Shown: in pieces, positions 1 through 7,511 of the stretch | How positions within the stretch are numbered: position 1 is the stretch's first letter | How the letters are laid out: every line of letters begins with the position of its first letter | Assembly: GCF_000143415.4 (NCBI RefSeq) | Contig: NW_003314664.1 | Span: 1 to 7,511, forward strand | DNA: 7,511 bases | Origin: Selaginella moellendorffii | Taxonomy: Eukaryota; Plantae; Lycopodiophyta | Reading direction: 5' to 3' | Made by a program: the position numbers and the translations under genes | Notes under the pieces: model-generated | What the model was told of the DNA's origin: nothing | Databases searched by the model: none | What the model saw: only the letters and a program-made list of their open reading frames with translations

Positions 1-65
1 AAAAAAAGGTTACCTATAAAGTAAAAAAAAAAAAAAAAAATGGGAAAGGGGGGTGCACTAGCGGC

Positions 66-168
66 ACCCTTACTTATTACAGGAGCGAGTGGCCGAATTG
101 AAACAATCCGACGGCTACCAAAATCCACTATAGTATACAGCATCGTAACCGTACACTTGGCCCTCACA
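66..168 (-). repeat. 3' LTR, recognisable part only
   Basis: Starts TGTGAGGGCCAAGTGTA 3 nt after the PPT. 78-168 aligns to 4891-5002 with 6 transitions and indels of 1, 1 and 9 nt by hand alignment. Similarity fades below about 66. Confidence 0.88.
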
Positions 169-171
169 TCA

Positions 172-183
172 TCCCCTCCTCTC
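172..183 (-). promoter_or_regulatory. Polypurine tract (plus-strand primer)
   Basis: GAGAGGAGGGGA on the minus strand, 3 nt (TGA) before the TG start of the 3' LTR. Confidence 0.88.
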
Positions 184-278
184 GGAATAATGGAAGGCCG
201 TCAGGGTTCTCTTGTAGATGGGCCGGGATCTGGAGGAACGTCAGGAGGAGGCATCGGTGGATCTGTAGACGGTATTAA

Positions 279-1099
279 CTACTCCTGATCCCTTTGTATG
301 AAGCGTTTTAACCGCTGCACATGCACAATCTCCGGAGGATCGGCCTGCTGAACGTCATGCCGAACCTCATAAACTTGTGGTCCAACTTGCCGCAACACCC
401 GATACGGTCCTTTCCACTGCGCAAGGAGCCCCTTAGATAAACCACGTACCGTAAATGGGGAAAACGGACTAACACCAAATCATCCACTTTGTACTCCGCA
501 GGTGGACGATGATGGGAATTGTAGCGCCGTTGTTGTCCCACTTGTACGCGGCCTAAGTGTTCAGCAGACTCTGCTCAGACAAGTGGAAGAATGCTTGTCA
601 AATATTGATCCCATGACCTAGCATCAGGAGCTCGTAGCAATTGCGAAGGTAAACCCAGCTCTGTTGGTAATATTGGATCATAACCATATAGAAGTTTATA
701 TGGTGAAGCACCAACAGAACTCTGCACCCCTGTGACATAGGCATACCGAAGAGACGGCAAATAACCATCCCAATCTGAATGTTGAAAGTTCACATACTTC
801 GCAATCATCCCTTTGAATGTCCAAACGAGCCGTTCCACCAGACCGTCTGATTGTGGATGATAAGCACTCGTAAAAGTGTGGCGTATCCCCAACCGAGATG
901 TCAAAACATGAAATACCTCAACCATAAATGCAGGACCATTATCCGAAAGAATCCGCTCTGGACAAGAATGCTGGAACACCACTTGATTGAGGAGGAAGTA
1001 TCCAACAGCAGTTGTAGAGGCACTAGCAAGAGCACCAACTTCCACCCAACAAGTCAAGTAGTCAGAAGCAATAATAACATACTCATTGCCAGCAGTCGA
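279..1099 (-). pseudogene. pol: pol part 4: integrase DDE core and GPY/F C-terminal region, disrupted
   Basis: The same frame continues past the stop: STAGNEYVIIASDYLTCWVE, ILSDNGPAF, AYHPQSDGLVER. There is a second TGA at 577-575 and a frameshift near 455-468, then WKGPYRV...VHVQRLKRF to TAG at 281-279. No chromodomain. Confidence 0.93.
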
Positions 1100-2717
1100 T
1101 CATGGAAAAGGTCCCATAAGATCAAACGCCACCAACTCAAATGGACGAGAAACTGCAATTGACTTCAACCGTCCTTCCGCAGCACAAGGGGGAGTATTAC
1201 GAGCTTGGCACCAAACGCAGCTACGCACATACTGGATAATATCACGTCGCATCTCTGGCCAATAGAAAGATCTGCGAAGCTTCTCAGTGACACGACGGTG
1301 TCCCATATGCCCACCTAGAATAGGAGAATCATGGTAGGCATGGAGAAACCGCGGAATAAACACCGAAGGCACCACCAGCCGTAAATGATCATCAGGATCC
1401 GTCCCCACAAAATAAAGAAGGCCATCTTCAAGGTGATATTGAGAATGTAAATGCCGAAAAGGCAAGTCATCAGCAAGTGATGTAGGATTCTCAAACCCAT
1501 CTCGAAGCCTTCGAATCCACGGCTCAATCTTTTGAGCCTCGCGAACCTCATCAAGAGGAGGTAGATCTTGCTCTACGCCCTGTGGACACTGAACGTCAAG
1601 GACAGCAACTGCCGACGGCACAGAATCCTCATCTAGAAAATCCACAGATGCTGGAACAACAGGTTCGTCAGAAACATGAGAAGTGAGTGGAGAAGGAAGA
1701 GGAGCTCGAGAAAGGGCATCAGCATCAGCCATAGAACTCCCTGGGCGATGAACAACATCGAAATCATATATCTGAAGCTTCAAAGCCCATCGAGCCGTAC
1801 GACCAACCAGGTTCTTCCGCTTCAATAATGAAGTAACAGCAGCATGGTCACCTTCAAGTAACGTCCGAGAACCATGTAGATATGCATGAAGTTTCTCGAA
1901 ACCCCAGATTGCTGCTAAACACTCCTTCTCCGTCGTGGAGTAGTTCATCTCCGCTAGTTGTAATGTACGGCTTATATATGCAATGGGATGGCACTGACCA
2001 GGCACACTCGAGCTCTCTTGCATCAACACACCTCCAAGACCAATGTCAGAAGCATCCACACGCAAAATAAAAGGTCGAGTGTAGTCAGGATATGCCAAAA
2101 CCGGAGGAGTCGTCAATAGCTCTTTGAGATTCACGAACGCCCGCTCACAATCGGGAGACCAGATGAAAGATGACATTGATGACTTTAGCAACGCTCGCAA
2201 TGGTGTAGTGCGATCGGAAAGATGATCCACAAAACGACCAAGATACTGCACCTTACCCAAAAAGCGCTGCACATCATTCACACACTTCGGAGTAGGGAAC
2301 TTTAGAACAGCCACAAGTTTGTCAGGATCAACTTGCAAACCCTCACGAGAAATACGGTACCCAAGATAAGTTGTGTCCTTGGACCCAAACACGCACTTCG
2401 ACCGCTTCAGTTTTAAACCAACATCGCGTAGCCGATCCAACACTTTACAAACATCACGAACATGCTCCTCCCACGTCCCCTCCGAGTGGATCAAGACATC
2501 ATCAACGAAGTCAGCCGTCACCTCCGGCATATCGCAAAGAACCTCGTCCATCACCCGCTGAAAAGTTGCTGGAGCATTGTTCAAACTAAACGGCATCACC
2601 AAAAACTCGTATAAACCAAATGGTGTACGAAAAGCAGTCTTAGGAATATCTTCTTCAGCCATCGGTACTTGCCAATACCCAGAAGCAAGATCTAGCTTGG
2701 TGAACCAACGACTTCGC
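1100..2717 (-). pseudogene. pol: pol part 3: RT core, RNase H, integrase HHCC and start of the DDE core
   Basis: The frame is open from the breakpoint: RSRWFTKLDLASGYWQVPM, KTAF, MPFSLNNAPATFQR, FVDD. RNase H: VDASDIGLGGVL, EKECLA, GDH, ADALSR. Integrase: H..GGHMG..CVWC, AFDLMGPFP. Ends at a premature TGA (1102-1100). Confidence 0.96.
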
Positions 2718-3290
2718 TATGGATTGGTTGCAGCACAATTATGCCAAGTGTGACTTTGAGGCTTCTCCCCCTTGTCTCATACTTCCTTATGTTTCATCCA
2801 TTCCTCTCACTTCCGTACCTCTTCGTCCCTCTACTTCTACCTCTGCTTCCATTACTTTTGTTCCCCCACTATTTCCTTTTGTGTTTCCATCTTGTTTTGC
2901 TCTTCCCTTTTCCGATCCCTCCGATGATCTTTGTGTTGTAGCTGTTGACCAGCTCATGAAGGAGTATTCTAATCTCTTTGAATTTGACCTATCGTCTGGG
3001 GCCAAGATTGCCACACGTCATCCCATTCCAACCGGGGATGCTCATCCAATCAAGGTTCCTGTTCGTCATCAGTCACCCAAGGAGATCAAGATTTTACGTG
3101 CAAACGTCAAGGAGATGTTGGAGAAGGGTGTTATTCGGAAGTCGCGGAGTCCTTGGGCATGTGAACCTCATCTTGTGACGAAGCCTGATGGGAGTATTCG
3201 TTTCTGCATCGACTATCGTCCGTTAAATGAAGTGACGATCCCGGACGTGTACCCTCTTCCTCACACTACTGATCTCTTGGATCGTCTGGG
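2718..3290 (+). pseudogene. pol: pol part 2, inverted: protease C-terminus, linker and RT N-terminus
   Basis: The + strand reads MDWLQH...EMLEKGVIRKSRSPWACEPHLVTKPDGSIRFCIDYRPLN...DVYPLP..DLLDRLG, the typical Ty3/gypsy RT N-terminus, opposite in orientation to the rest of pol. Confidence 0.95.
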
Positions 3291-3688
3291 CCAAGAATGA
3301 GGTCAAAAGCTTGACTCGGCACCACCCGCAACGACTGCAACTCAAGCTCGAGATCGCCCACACGCACAACCAGGTCCGCCTCATCTCGTGCACATGCATG
3401 TGTACGGCCATTGCCATAAAGAATGAAAACTGGATCTGCCGCACGACGCAAGTGTAGACGACAACGTGTGGCAACAAGTCGAGCAATAGAAGATAAACTC
3501 GAACCTGTATCAACCAACACGGAGAGAAGAATAAGAGACGTCTTGTTATAAAAATGAGCTTGGAAAGTAAACACTGGATGAACCGGTGCCGAGTGAACCC
3601 CTTGATGATACTCCCGAAAGAAACATGGAGGGGTCACTAACTTATTCGCACAAGGTCCCTCCATTACTCGTGCGACTCCTCGTTTCCC
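3291..3688 (-). pseudogene. pol: pol part 1: aspartic protease, cut by the inversion breakpoint
   Basis: Active site VLVDTGS and C-terminal FDLILG. The expected continuation MDWL is found on the opposite strand at 2719. Confidence 0.92.
3625..3688 (-). promoter_or_regulatory. -1 programmed ribosomal frameshift signal: slippery G GGA AAC plus predicted H-type pseudoknot
   Basis: The heptamer (3688-3682) is in the correct gag phase, with a 6-nt spacer. Stem 1 is UCGCACGAG/CUUGUGCGA and stem 2 is AUGGAGGG/CCCUCCAU. The protease ORF is in the -1 frame relative to gag. Confidence 0.88.
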
Positions 3689-4596
3689 GAATGCACCTCG
3701 GTATCCAAACCTTCCACCGCAGCAGCACCAACGGGACGTTGCTGACGCCAAGGTCTCCACCCAGGAAATGGAGGTCGCCAATCCGGAAAGCGCCAACAAC
3801 GCCGATAAGTATGACCAACTTCATCACACGCCCAGCAACGAACGTCACGACCACGACCACGTCCTCGCCCTTGTCCTTGGACTCGAGTAGCAACAGCATC
3901 AACCTCCATGGGAACAGGACCATCACTCATAGGAAGTGGAGCTGAAGGACGTGTAGCAAGAAGTGGAAGAGGTGACGTCTCATAACGTTGTGCCAAGCGA
4001 AGAGCATCGTCAAGAGTGGCAGGAGCAAGTGCATGCACAAGTCCGACAAGATCTTGACGAAGTGCTGGCCACAGCATTCCTAACTTGATCCGCTCCGACA
4101 TATTTGGCTCCGCACGAAGCAAAAGACTTCGGAAACGAACGCCAAATTGCATCACCGACTCAGATGGCCCTTGGCGAAGACGATGCAATTGTTGGAAGGC
4201 ATCATCACAATCGTCGGCGTGTCTGAAGGCGCGTTTGAAGATGTCCGGAAGAACACTCCAATCGCCACGAGTAGCTGCGCTCAATCCATTGTACCACTGC
4301 AATGCCGTCCCTTGGAGACATGTGGGGAACTCACGCAAACGTCGAGTATCATCCCAAGAATGATATGTGGCAATCACCGTGAAGTGATCGAACCAATGGT
4401 ACACATCATCCCCAGGATTCCCACGAAAGAACTCCGGCCGAACGCGAGGATTGGCACCAAAAGCAGGAGGAGTTGTACCATGTGCCGTGAACGCCACCAT
4501 CAACTGAGTTTGGTTGTTCAATTGCAAGTGCATAGCATCAAGCAATTGAACCAACTGCTGCTCTAGAGTCAAAGGAGGAGATTGCGGATCGGCCAT
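3664..4596 (-). CDS. gag: Gag (capsid plus CCHC nucleocapsid), 310 aa, intact
   Basis: Retrotransposon gag motifs: PEFFRG..DVYHWF, LQGTALQWY, LRQGPSESVMQFGVRF and GPVPMEVD, an RG-rich stretch, and a zinc knuckle CWACDEVGHTYRRC (C-x2-C-x4-H-x4-C). Confidence 0.95.
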   Translation of the reverse strand: MADPQSPPLTLEQQLVQLLDAMHLQLNNQTQLMVAFTAHGTTPPAFGANPRVRPEFFRGNPGDDVYHWFDHFTVIATYHSWDDTRRLREFPTCLQGTALQWYNGLSAATRGDWSVLPDIFKRAFRHADDCDDAFQQLHRLRQGPSESVMQFGVRFRSLLLRAEPNMSERIKLGMLWPALRQDLVGLVHALAPATLDDALRLAQRYETSPLPLLATRPSAPLPMSDGPVPMEVDAVATRVQGQGRGRGRGRDVRCWACDEVGHTYRRCWRFPDWRPPFPGWRPWRQQRPVGAAAVEGLDTEVHSGNEESHE

Positions 4597-4660
4597 GAAG
4601 ATGAATGAGAAAGAAAAAGCAAAAGAAGAGAAATGACAAAAAGCTGGAAAGAAATGGTAG

Positions 4661-4777
4661 ATCTAGACAATGCAAAAAGCTAGATCTAAACCAAAATCCT
4701 GAAAGGAAAGAACAAAAGAAAGGAAATGGAAAAAGTTAAATCTAAACAATGCAAAAGCTAGATCTAAACTGAAATCC
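4661..4777. repeat. Imperfect ~39-bp direct repeat (2 copies) in the element's 5' leader
   Basis: atctagacaatgcaaaaagctagatctaaaccaaaatcc (4661-4699) versus atctaaacaatgcaaaagctagatctaaactgaaatcc (4740-4777). Confidence 0.8.
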
Positions 4778-4809
4778 CAAATCCAAGCACTCCCAGGGAC
4801 AATCAAAGG

Positions 4810-4827
4810 TGCCCCTCATCTCCACCA
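4810..4827 (-). promoter_or_regulatory. Primer binding site, probably tRNA-Ala
   Basis: TGGTGGAGATGAGGGGCA lies immediately inside the 5' LTR. TGGTGGAGATG is complementary to the ...CAUCUCCACCA 3' end of eukaryotic tRNA-Ala (recalled sequence). Confidence 0.82.
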
Positions 4828-4828
4828 A

Positions 4829-5002
4829 TGTGAGTGCATAGAATATGGAAAGGGAATACAGAAATGTGCATATCAATTAGCCCAAAAACCCTAGTTTATA
4901 TACAAGAGCAAGTGGTCCGGATTGAAACCAATCCGACGGCTACCAAAATCCACTATGCTAATATTAGTATATAGCATCGTAGCCATACACTTGGCCCTCA
5001 CA
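4829..5002 (-). repeat. 5' LTR (174 bp)
   Basis: Minus strand starts TGTGAG and ends CTCACA (6-bp terminal inverted repeat, TG...CA). It is followed 1 nt later by the PBS. 4891-5002 aligns with 78-168. Confidence 0.92.
4885..4892 (-). promoter_or_regulatory. Candidate TATA box in 5' LTR
   Basis: TATATAAA on the element's sense strand in mid-LTR. Motif match only. Confidence 0.45.
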
Positions 5003-5136
5003 GTTTCATAATACATGAATTTTTAAATTGATTTATTGATTTTCATTATCATTGCCACGTTGCAAACATAAAATGCCACATCAGCAAGAAATTGCATAAT
5101 GTGCTACTTGCACGTGGCTGCACTGCTGCATTGCTA

Positions 5137-5284
5137 GATGGAGCTGGATCTGTGTTGTTGGATGGAGTTGGATCGCTGCTTGCTAGAGCTAGATTGCTGC
5201 ACCGCTGCGTTGTTGGATGGAGCTGGATCGCTGTTTGCTCGGCTGTGGCTGCCTGGCTAGTGCTGGATCGCTGCTTGCTCGGCT
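5137..5284. repeat. Degenerate minisatellite-like repeat
   Basis: About four imperfect copies of (gttgttg)gatggagctggatcgctgcttgct(cggct) near 5137, 5154, 5209 and 5262. Confidence 0.7.
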
Positions 5285-5443
5285 CACGCTGCTCTTGTCT
5301 GGTCGATCCGCTGCTCGCTGAATGTGCTGCTCCTGGAGATCAGTGAGAACAAAAATAGCTTTAAAAAAAAGCAACCTCTTACTAAATCGAAAAGTTGTTG
5401 ATAGTTCTGGCCAGAAGTAGGACATGCCAGACTAGTTAATTAC

Positions 5444-5631
5444 CGCATCGCAAGGGCCAAGACTTGATGGTTGGAATCCAAAACGTGTGAAAGACCAGAT
5501 ATCAAACCAAATTTCCACTTAAAGGTAGATATGGAGAGGATATTACCTGGGAAACCATCATACACAGAGAAGGTGAACGGACATGGCTAAGCTGCGTAAG
5601 CCCGGCCAAGAAAACCAATGGATTGCATCAG
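5444..5631 (-). pseudogene. PHT4: PHT4/ANTR (SLC17-type) anion transporter fragment 2: two decayed exons
   Basis: Hand translation gives LMQSIGFLG/frameshift/TQLSHVRSPS-LCMMVSQ|gtaat, then SGL[SHVL]DSNHQ/frameshift/LGPCDA|gtaat. This matches the recalled plant PHT4;1/4;4 segment IMQSIGFLGPAFFLSQLSHVKTP..LCMACSQ..SGLYSNHQDIGPRYA. Confidence 0.78.
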
Positions 5632-5713
5632 TAAAACAATGCTGCAAATGCTTGACCACCAACGAAGGGCTAAAATTGAGCACATATATACATACCTTCC
5701 TCCTGCTCCTGGG

Positions 5714-6075
5714 GCCACGGAAATTCAGTTCAACCTGGGAGAAGTGTCAAGAACGAGAGAGTAAAACATGAAAAAGGATGGAAGAAAGTTTGCGCTGGTT
5801 TCTGCAACAAGTCAAGAGGGCCTAGTTTATCTTCGTCGCAATGTACTTCTTGACCAGCAATATGGGAAGTTGCCTATCTCTGCGTGTTTAGAGAAGTCAG
5901 TGGAGTTGAAATCGTCTTACGTTATTCTCACGTAGGGTGTTATGATCGGGAAGCACCGAGTCCTCACTCCTGTGGATCCGACAAGTCAGACGCCAAAGAG
6001 AAAAATAAAACAAAGAGAGATCGAGAGAAAGATGGCCTGCAAAGCCAGAGAAGTTTCTAAGGGAAAACGAAAGGT
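5714..6075 (-). pseudogene. BMI1/DRIP-like (PRC1 RING family) RAWUL-domain fragment, copy A
   Basis: LSFSL.. then SEDSVLP/frameshift/IITPYVRIT|gtaag..cag|DRQLPILLVKKYIATKIN*, then cag|VELNFRG. It resembles the recalled plant BMI1 segment WFSL..PLPQI...YLRIKDG.LPVS.IQKYL..KL.L..E.EVEI.C.G. Confidence 0.65.
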
Positions 6076-6340
6076 TTGAGAGCAAACCGCTGTGACAACC
6101 TGGAAGCGAGGAGGAAGAGTAGCTTTGTACAGTTCTCCGAGAGCAGAAATGCACGAAACTAAGAAACCGAAGGACTACTGTGCAATCAAGCAACTTCTAG
6201 GATTAAAACTTAGCATTGCATGAAAGTGATACAAGCAATTTACCCGAATCACTGCTCTAAGATTTGTGCTCTTCGTCCTCCTCGCTCGAGTTTGTTATTT
6301 CTCACTTAACTTTCATGTAATTAAATAGAGCCGGGGCAAT

Positions 6341-6524
6341 CTCTTCCTCTGAAAGTGTGATATCTTCCACAGGCGAGCTATATGCCTGAAAAACAAAACT
6401 GACAATGAGAAGTAATGCAAAGTATGAGCGAACTCACGGTTTTCTGCCAGAATGTAAACCAGACCACTCCCAGCGAACCAAACGTAAAGAAAACCAAGGG
6501 CCAGTTATACTCGTGAATCAAGGC
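6341..6524 (-). pseudogene. PHT4: PHT4/ANTR fragment 1: two exon parts with an intact 52-nt intron (6437-6386)
   Basis: ALIHEYNWPLVFFTFGSLGVVWFTFWQKT|GTGAGT...TTTTTCAG|AYSSPVEDITLSEEE splices in frame. It matches the recalled PHT4;4-type LIHKFGWPSVFYSFGSLG..W..LW...AYSSP.DD..LSEEE. Confidence 0.8.
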
Positions 6525-6531
6525 AAAGTGA

Positions 6532-6567
6532 CCACCATATCACTCCGAGCCACCATATCACTCCGAG
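6532..6567. repeat. Perfect 18-bp tandem duplication
   Basis: ccaccatatcactccgag at 6532-6549 and 6550-6567. Confidence 0.95.
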
Positions 6568-6572
6568 GCTCT

Positions 6573-7244
6573 GGCAATTCGGTTCAACCTGGAGGAAGAG
6601 TCAAGAACGAGAGAGTAAAAAATGAGAAAGGATGGAAGAAAGTTTGCGCTGGTTTCTGCGACAAGTCAAGAGGAGCAAGGGGGCTTACGTCGGTTTCATT
6701 GCCGAGGTTTAGCTTCGTCGCAATGTACTTCGATACAGGAAGTCCCGTCTCTGCGTGTTTAGAGAAGTCAGTGGAGTTGAAAAAAACACAAGTCGTTTGA
6801 GTTATTCTGTTATGATCACGGGAAGTCCTCGCTCCTCTGGATCCGGCAAGTCAGACGCCAAAGAGAAAAATAAAACAGAGAGAGATTGGGAGAAAGATGA
6901 CCTGCGAAGCCAGAGAAGTTTCTAAGGGAAAACGAAAGGACTTAACTGGTTGGCCTGTGACGTCCTGGAAGCGAGCCTTGTAAAGTTCTCCGCCATTGTT
7001 GGCGCTGGTTCCACCGCGACGTCGAGGGACGCCTTTCGTCGGCCGGGAGAGCTTGGAGAAGCGTCCGGTGGTTGCCTGCCTTTGGATATCTCGGCCCGCC
7101 GAGGAGGATGGCTGGTTTTGCTGCCTGGACGATCCTCCGGCGTGGTCATGTCTGCCAGCTCGACCAAGTTTGCAAGCGGAGAGTGATAGCCTGCTGCCAC
7201 GGACTTGCCTTTGTCTTCGCGAGTTGGTTTCTTCGCGTGGTTAC
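6573..7244 (-). pseudogene. BMI1/DRIP-like fragment, copy B, including an upstream exon
   Basis: A polypyrimidine tract plus CAG acceptor (7247-7245) opens ..EDKGKSVAAGYHSPLANLVELADMT.., resembling the recalled BMI1 motif WKPLNCLVEAANRT. Downstream: cag|..DG..KYIATKLNLGNETD|gtaag (100-nt intron, 6688-6589) cag|VE. Confidence 0.6.
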
Positions 7245-7511
7245 CTGGAGGAAAATCAAAGAAAAACGAAGAAAGATCAAGTCAGAGTTTGCAAGATCAT
7301 TATAAATGTTATGTCAGGAGACAAAGCGAAATGACCAACATTATGATCCAAACTTATCCATAGTTTACCAGTCAGACCTTCCCAATGAACAAAAGCGAGA
7401 GCAGAAATGCACGAAACTAAGAAACCGAACTATACAATAGCGCCACGACCCCGCTTCTCTGCGTGCGATGAAGACATGCCGTCTTTCTTCCTTTTTCTGT
7501 ACCGTTTTTTT

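What the first reader, a model, noticed from the sequence alone, without database searches (positions are those of the whole stretch)
2718..3290. Precise, scarless 573-bp inversion inside pol (protease end to RT start)
Seen: the middle of pol is on the + strand while both flanks are on the - strand, and local base skew flips with it (T-rich versus A-rich flanks). Re-inverting exactly 2718-3290 gives ATT CTT GG|T ATG GAT TGG (ILG-MDWL) and GAT CGT CTG GG|G CGA AGT CGT TGG (DRLG-RSRWFTKLD). That yields one open frame from the frameshift site to 1100. Moving both breakpoints by 1 nt keeps the frame but gives non-canonical ILAMDW or DRLER. No bases are lost or gained, and there are no flanking inverted repeats, microhomology or target duplication. 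Inference: no known recombinase switch or IR-mediated recombination explains it. The options are blunt two-break end joining after insertion, or an assembly or in-silico artefact. If real and transcribed, the copy would make RNA antisense to sibling elements' PR-RT region (speculative).
Basis: partly seen in the sequence, partly recalled or inferred. Interest (0 to 1): 0.88.

Follow-up and report, generated by a model that had tools for sequence, protein, structure and literature searches.

The report
Flipped segment in dead plant retrotransposon
A 573-base piece of one dead jumping-gene copy lies backwards with no bases lost, while the sister copies seen are in normal order, so it is likely a one-off DNA repair accident or a flaw in this sequence record rather than a genetic switch.

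Summary
The window carries a ~5.0-kb Ty3/gypsy LTR retrotransposon on the minus strand, Selgy-like in anatomy, and 2718-3290 (end of protease to start of RT) lies on the plus strand. Sibling copies in four runs are collinear and fix both breaks to the base, with nothing lost or gained. In 98 of 99 homologous proteins hit by both pieces, the spacing agrees. There is no inverted repeat, microhomology or duplication. That excludes the usual recombinase, autointegration and alternative-transposition signatures. The left inverted junction was not seen among the longest of 2,666 contig pieces. Those samples may lack this copy, and contigs drop rare forms. The copy has other breaks, and its left end looks like a decaying read end. 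No RNA-seq reads lay on the segment in one run. Best reading: a private two-break, blunt end-joining inversion in one dead copy (0.5). A record artefact is nearly as likely (0.4). A switch or a functional antisense source is unsupported. Ordinary, low interest.

The parts
2718..3290 (+). Inverted 573-bp piece of pol: protease C-terminal end, spacer and RT N-terminal part
   Evidence: Ty3 582-676 match on +; sibling loose ends and opposite-strand joints at both ends
4829..5002 (-). 5' LTR, 174 bp, with terminal inverted 6-mer (TGTGAG...CTCACA)
   Evidence: sibling contigs diverge into varied flanks behind 5002
4817..4827 (-). Primer-binding site starting TGG one base after the LTR; likely tRNA-Ala type (tRNA match recalled, not tested)
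3664..4596 (-). gag ORF, 310 aa
   Evidence: Retrotrans_gag PF03732 E 6e-11; Ty3_capsid below its cut-off
3682..3688 (-). Slippery heptamer G GGA AAC in the gag frame; predicted -1 frameshift into pol
   Evidence: motif type recalled
3291..3820 (-). Aspartic protease part of pol, overlapping the gag end, cut at the right break
   Evidence: PF13975 E 3e-7; no stops
1100..2717 (-). RT core, RNase H and integrase zinc finger; ends at a premature stop at 1100-1102 that most sibling depth does not share
279..1099 (-). Integrase core and C-terminal domain, broken by a stop at 575-577 and a frame change further on; no chromodomain hit
   Evidence: rve, Integrase_p58_C, SH3_Tf2-1; ORF list
172..183 (-). 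Polypurine tract
1..168 (-). 3' LTR; 3 transitions and two gaps over 72 aligned bases at 97-168, then progressive decay towards base 1

Best explanation
One copy of a high-copy Ty3/gypsy retrotransposon has a 573-base piece of pol lying backwards with exact, homology-free ends, likely because two blunt DNA breaks in this chromosomal copy were rejoined the wrong way round by classical non-homologous end joining. Shown: the flip, its exact ends, the lack of repeats or duplication, collinear siblings, and other breaks in this copy. Inferred: that it happened in the chromosome after insertion, that it happened once, and that end joining did it. The copy is likely dead and the flip likely has no function.
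For: Exact reciprocal breaks against siblings. No inverted repeat, microhomology or duplication, so overlap-based assembly, homologous recombination and site-specific recombinases have nothing to use. The sequence around both junctions is clean: three stop-free pieces that match sibling ends. The degraded stretch is 2.5 kb away. The copy looks like an aged genomic copy: its well-aligned LTR parts differ only by transitions plus gaps, and it has private stops. Precise ligation after double cutting is attributed to classical end joining (PMC7883824, passages). Two-break inversions occur in plants (PMC3789795, passages). Spontaneous non-TE inversions without homology occur in Chlamydomonas (10.1101/2022.05.23.493040, passages).
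Against: The left junction was not among the longest pieces of 2,666 laid records in 4 runs (2 samples), and an exact 28-mer across it had 0 hits in metagenome contigs. Perfect ends at both junctions are uncommon when breaks are not nuclease-made. In irradiated Arabidopsis 20 of 23 inversions had microhomology at a junction, and 17 had partial loss of it (PMC8581144, passages). The Chlamydomonas cases had short deletions at several breakpoints. The record's left end decays like an untrimmed read, so coverage may be thin.
Confidence: 0.5

Rival explanations
1. The flip exists only in this record: a rearranged clone or chimeric read in a thinly covered contig, a manual or scripted orientation error, or an in-silico inversion.
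For: Junction not seen in 4 runs or in metagenome contigs. None of 8 exact ORF products is in the 15-billion collection (weak, start sites were guessed). The record's left end degrades and stops about where the LTR ends. A scripted reverse-complement always gives zero loss, and zero microhomology 57% of the time.
Against: No homology exists for an assembler to mis-join on. Blunt co-ligation of sheared fragments does not normally restore both original neighbours (own knowledge). The negative is weak: X1-X3 are one sample holding 57-65% of the words. Neither X1 contig at 7043-7193 is identical to the window, and an X1 contig at single-copy depth carries flank 5002-5132 on into other letters (table 8). 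So that sample may lack this copy. Contigs also drop rare forms.
Confidence: 0.4
2. The flip arose during reverse transcription or DNA replication by two homology-free template switches, before or after insertion.
For: Retroelement cDNA synthesis is switch-prone (own knowledge). The six bases 5' of the two breaks on the coding strands match at 5 of 6, which about 2% of random pairs reach (best of four comparisons, post hoc).
Against: That likeness is in direct orientation, which would favour deletion rather than inversion. Two switches with no base lost at either junction are unlikely. No second copy with the junction was seen.
Confidence: 0.07
3. A recombinase or sequence-specific nuclease flips this segment, as a switch or as a silencing device that makes antisense RNA.
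For: Only the 5-of-6 likeness beside both breaks. Crypton-linked inversions exist in green algae (10.1101/2022.05.23.493040, passages).
Against: No shared inverted core at the breaks, not even one base. Crypton cases have target sites at each breakpoint. All listed sibling pieces are collinear. No RNA reads on the segment in X22. No hairpin partner.
Confidence: 0.03

Closest known systems
Selgy clade of non-chromovirus Ty3/gypsy LTR retrotransposons (REXdb; PMC6317226, passages and supplementary file 3 read)
   Same: About 5.0 kb (Selgy mean 5044 bp, range 4432-6724); gag overlapping pol in another frame; PR-RT-RH-INT order; no extra domain hit; coding sequence fills the interior; tRNA-type primer site, likely Ala (Selgy 90% tRNA-Ala)
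   Different: Phylogenetic placement not tested; target-site duplication not readable; this copy has the internal inversion and several breaks
Two-break inversions joined by classical non-homologous end joining (Cas9 or ZFN double cuts: PMC7883824, PMC3789795; radiation-induced: PMC8581144; passages)
   Same: Reciprocal junctions, no repeats needed, segment conserved; nuclease double cuts often ligate precisely
   Different: No nuclease is known here; radiation-induced plant inversions mostly show microhomology and small losses, whereas both junctions here are perfect
Retroelement autointegration inversion circles (2-LTR inverted Ty circle; PMC4751563, passages)
   Same: An inverted internal segment in an LTR element
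   Different: Autointegration puts LTR ends at the junctions; here both breaks are inside pol, 1.5 kb or more from any LTR
CryptonF-1 tyrosine-recombinase-linked inversions in Chlamydomonas (10.1101/2022.05.23.493040, passages)
   Same: Inversions with defined ends in a green-lineage genome
   Different: Those have the element or its target site at each breakpoint; here there is no shared inverted site and no such element

Membership tests
Ty3/gypsy LTR retrotransposon | Two LTRs with primer-binding site and polypurine tract | tested here: met
   4829-5002 and about 65-168; PBS 4817-4827; PPT 172-183
Ty3/gypsy LTR retrotransposon | Domain order gag, protease, RT, RNase H, integrase | tested here: met
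   Pfam; Ty3 Gag-Pol is the best solved match, E 5.6e-72
Ty3/gypsy LTR retrotransposon | No envelope gene (not an errantivirus or retrovirus) | tested here: met
   No room or ORF between the integrase end (279) and the polypurine tract (183)
Selgy clade | Length 4.4-6.7 kb, gag overlapping pol, no chromodomain or extra RNase H | tested here: met
   against supplementary file 3 of PMC6317226
Selgy clade | Primer-binding site complementary to tRNA-Ala | tested here: inconclusive
   TGG-starting site present; the tRNA identity is recalled, no host tRNA set was available
Selgy clade | 4-bp target-site duplication | not testable with these tools
   The window ends inside the degraded 3' LTR
Selgy clade | RT-RH-INT phylogeny groups with Selgy references | not tested
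   No reference sequences in the held supplements; best full-length hits in the protein collection were about 41% identical and unnamed
End-joining (cNHEJ-type) inversion | Reciprocal junctions with 0-few bases of microhomology and little or no loss | tested here: met
End-joining (cNHEJ-type) inversion | Present in genomic DNA of the organism | tested here: inconclusive
   Left junction not seen in contigs of 4 runs; right junction not tested this way; no raw DNA reads listed
Site-specific recombinase inversion switch | Matching crossover cores in inverted orientation at both ends | tested here: not met
   No complementary base pair on either side of the breaks
Site-specific recombinase inversion switch | Both orientations recur | tested here: inconclusive
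   Only the collinear form among listed pieces; contigs drop rare forms
Autointegration or alternative transposition | Element ends and a target duplication at the junctions | tested here: not met
   No LTR sequence or 12-mer duplication at either break

The most novel reading that the evidence does not exclude
An unidentified sequence-selective blunt nuclease or recombinase cuts this retrotransposon family just after a TCT(T/G)GG motif and flips the protease-RT piece, turning copies into antisense templates against their siblings. That would be a host or element-borne inversion-based silencing device.
Probability: 0.02. Interest if true: 0.85.

Novelty: new member of a known kind. Interest (0 to 1): 0.2.

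Why it matters
If real, it is a clean natural example of an error-free two-break inversion in a plant repeat, and a locus-specific marker for one copy in a very large family. It changes no model of retrotransposon biology unless it recurs. If it is an artefact, it warns that unfinished repeat-rich contigs can hold homology-free flips. It would matter only if the same junctions turned up at several loci, or in both orientations at one locus.

Tried and rejected
No genome is held for this window, so sibling copies and the locus could not be dot-plotted. Exact look-up of 8 ORF products: 0 of 8 found, uninformative because start sites were guessed. Exact junction 28-mer in metagenome contigs: 0 hits. 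Related loci: 1 weak hit in viral contigs and 9 distant ones, 26-39% identical, in metagenome contigs. In 5 of these 10 loci both the segment and the RT piece hit, on the same strand and in order. No RNA holder on record was listed, which is no evidence on expression. Rfam gathering scan: 0 matches. Pfam on 8 flank ORFs and the segment's RT part: nothing below E 0.19. Short inverted matches near the junctions (5-7 nt) sit at unequal offsets and were rejected as chance. A palindromic blunt restriction site and an NGG PAM three bases from either break were looked for by eye and not found. Earlier findings: none for this genome, none by sequence, none holding all the words. Paper searches listed no paper whose title or abstract start describes a precise internal inversion in an LTR-element pol. 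The library is partial, so this is not proof of absence. One search (assembly artefacts) and one search were seen as listings only, apart from the Chlamydomonas paper. PMC11874742 (passages) reports precise ligation for deletion junctions only and was not used. LTR dating was rejected: only 72 bases align cleanly.

Full report
What the window holds. Bases about 1-5002 are one LTR retrotransposon on the minus strand. It has a 174-bp 5' LTR (4829-5002), a TGG-starting primer site, gag (4596-3664) and a G GGA AAC heptamer in the gag frame. Pol follows in the -1 frame with protease, RT, RNase H and integrase, then a polypurine tract and a 3' LTR. Ty3 Gag-Pol is the best solved match. Length, overlapping gag/pol and the lack of extra domains fit the Selgy row of the REXdb table, and no other Ty3/gypsy row of that table combines them (PMC6317226, supplementary file 3). 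Selgy was described from a lycophyte (passages). The tRNA-Ala identity of the primer site is my recall, and phylogeny was not tested, so I call it Selgy-like. The family is very abundant. Summed contig depth in full element bins is about 0.6-1.1 million in X1 against 440-1,670 in most flank bins, with a similar contrast in X2 and X14 (the tool warns this is no copy number).

The observation. 2719-3288 read on plus matches Ty3 residues 582-676, and 2716-1103 read on minus continues at Ty3 680 for query residue 3. Of 120 stored homologues, 99 are hit by both pieces. In 98 of the 99 exactly one residue lies between the pieces, and in one the spacing is -2. Sibling contigs give the direct answer. 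They stop at 2717, 2718, 3290 and 3291, and their loose letters belong to the opposite end or flank. Opposite-strand joints are listed near 2715 to 3290. Some siblings stop at 2714-2715 or 2723; I read these as sibling substitutions next to the break. So siblings are collinear and the breaks are exact. No base pair flanking the breaks is complementary, and no 12-mer near or within the segment recurs in the window. The skew flip comes mostly from the T-rich spacer half, and the absence of microhomology is the commoner outcome for random breakpoints (57%).

Is it in the organism? I laid X1, X2, X3 and X14 on 2668-2767. They gave 1,104, 959, 586 and 17 records, 2,666 in all. The tool showed 32 (the longest, and some at a joint), and the longest run 50-51 letters and end at the break. 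None bridges it. The right junction was not tested this way. This negative is weak. X1-X3 are one sample holding 57-65% of the window's words. In X1 neither listed contig at 7043-7193 is identical to the window. A contig at single-copy depth carries flank 5002-5132 on into letters that are not on the window, as an empty site or a paralogue would. On the other side, X1 matches 5239-5394 with no difference, and many contigs at single-copy depth survive in these sets, so the negative is not worthless. No raw DNA reads were listed. The record itself looks unfinished. Identity between the two LTRs is 69 of 72 aligned bases at 97-168 and falls off towards base 1 with homopolymer runs. That resembles an untrimmed read end (inference).

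How it most likely arose. With no shared sequence at the ends, homologous recombination, tyrosine or serine recombinases (which need a matching core; own knowledge) and overlap mis-joins are out. Autointegration would leave LTR ends at the junctions (PMC4751563, passages). What remains is two blunt breaks rejoined crosswise. Precise ligation after double cutting is described and attributed to classical end joining (PMC7883824, passages). Two-break inversions have been made in Arabidopsis, many with small deletions (PMC3789795, passages). Spontaneous non-TE inversions without homology, several with short deletions, occur in Chlamydomonas. Against this reading, 20 of 23 radiation-induced Arabidopsis inversions had microhomology and 17 lost part of it (PMC8581144, passages), so two perfect junctions are the minority outcome. 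A scripted or curated flip would always be perfect. I put the real, private end-joining event at 0.5 and a record artefact at 0.4.

One loose thread. On their coding strands the six bases before the two breaks match at 5 of 6, TCT(T/G)GG. About 2% of random position pairs reach this when the best of four comparisons is taken. It was noticed after the fact and is in direct orientation, so I treat it as probably chance. It is the only support for the novel case.

Function. The copy is broken elsewhere too: a stop at 1100-1102 that most sibling depth does not share, a stop at 575-577 and a frame change in integrase. In RNA run X22 (about 12% read) depth is zero in both directions over 1758-3765. 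Other element bins have low depth, at most 4.4. This library cannot show small RNAs and the sample may lack the copy. The piece has no second arm, so a transcript would not fold back on itself. Antisense silencing is possible in principle but unsupported.

Earlier scan notes on recombinase-linked inversions in other genomes prompted the test for shared sites. They are unchecked leads, and that signature is absent here. Verdict: the feature is in the record exactly as described. It is most likely an ordinary one-off rearrangement in a dead repeat, or a flaw of the record. Interest 0.2.

Noticed in passing
window 1-130: The 3' LTR decays progressively against the 5' LTR towards base 1, with long A and G runs. 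This resembles an untrimmed low-quality read end, and the window stops about where the LTR should end.
   Followed up: partly
window 5003-7511: The flank is a low-copy repeat with an internal duplication (about 5719-6110 against 6573-6975, 76% over 423 columns, with blocks of 92-100%). RNA reads of X22 lie on 5774-7279 at depth 8-60, all first mate on +, mostly 90-99% alike and with many loose ends. They probably come from a transcribed, spliced paralogue on the minus strand. No Pfam or Rfam match.
   Followed up: partly
window 5117-5292: Degenerate short tandem units of about 40-55 bases around a GCTGGATC core, next to the 5' LTR (D3 and D4).
   Followed up: no
window 5002-5132: An X1 contig at single-copy depth covers this flank and continues past 5002 into 47 letters not on the window: a possible empty insertion site or a paralogue (table 8, record 3).
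   Followed up: no
window 3285-3296: The six bases before each break on its coding strand match at 5 of 6; about 2% by chance, post hoc.
   Followed up: partly
window 2480-2500 (RT active-site region, minus strand): The RT catalytic motif reads FVDD rather than the usual YxDD; not checked whether this is a family trait.
   Followed up: no
window 1103-2716: No close relative of this pol appeared in the 5.8-billion protein search: the best full-length hits are about 41% identical among the 7,987 candidates scored.
   Followed up: partly
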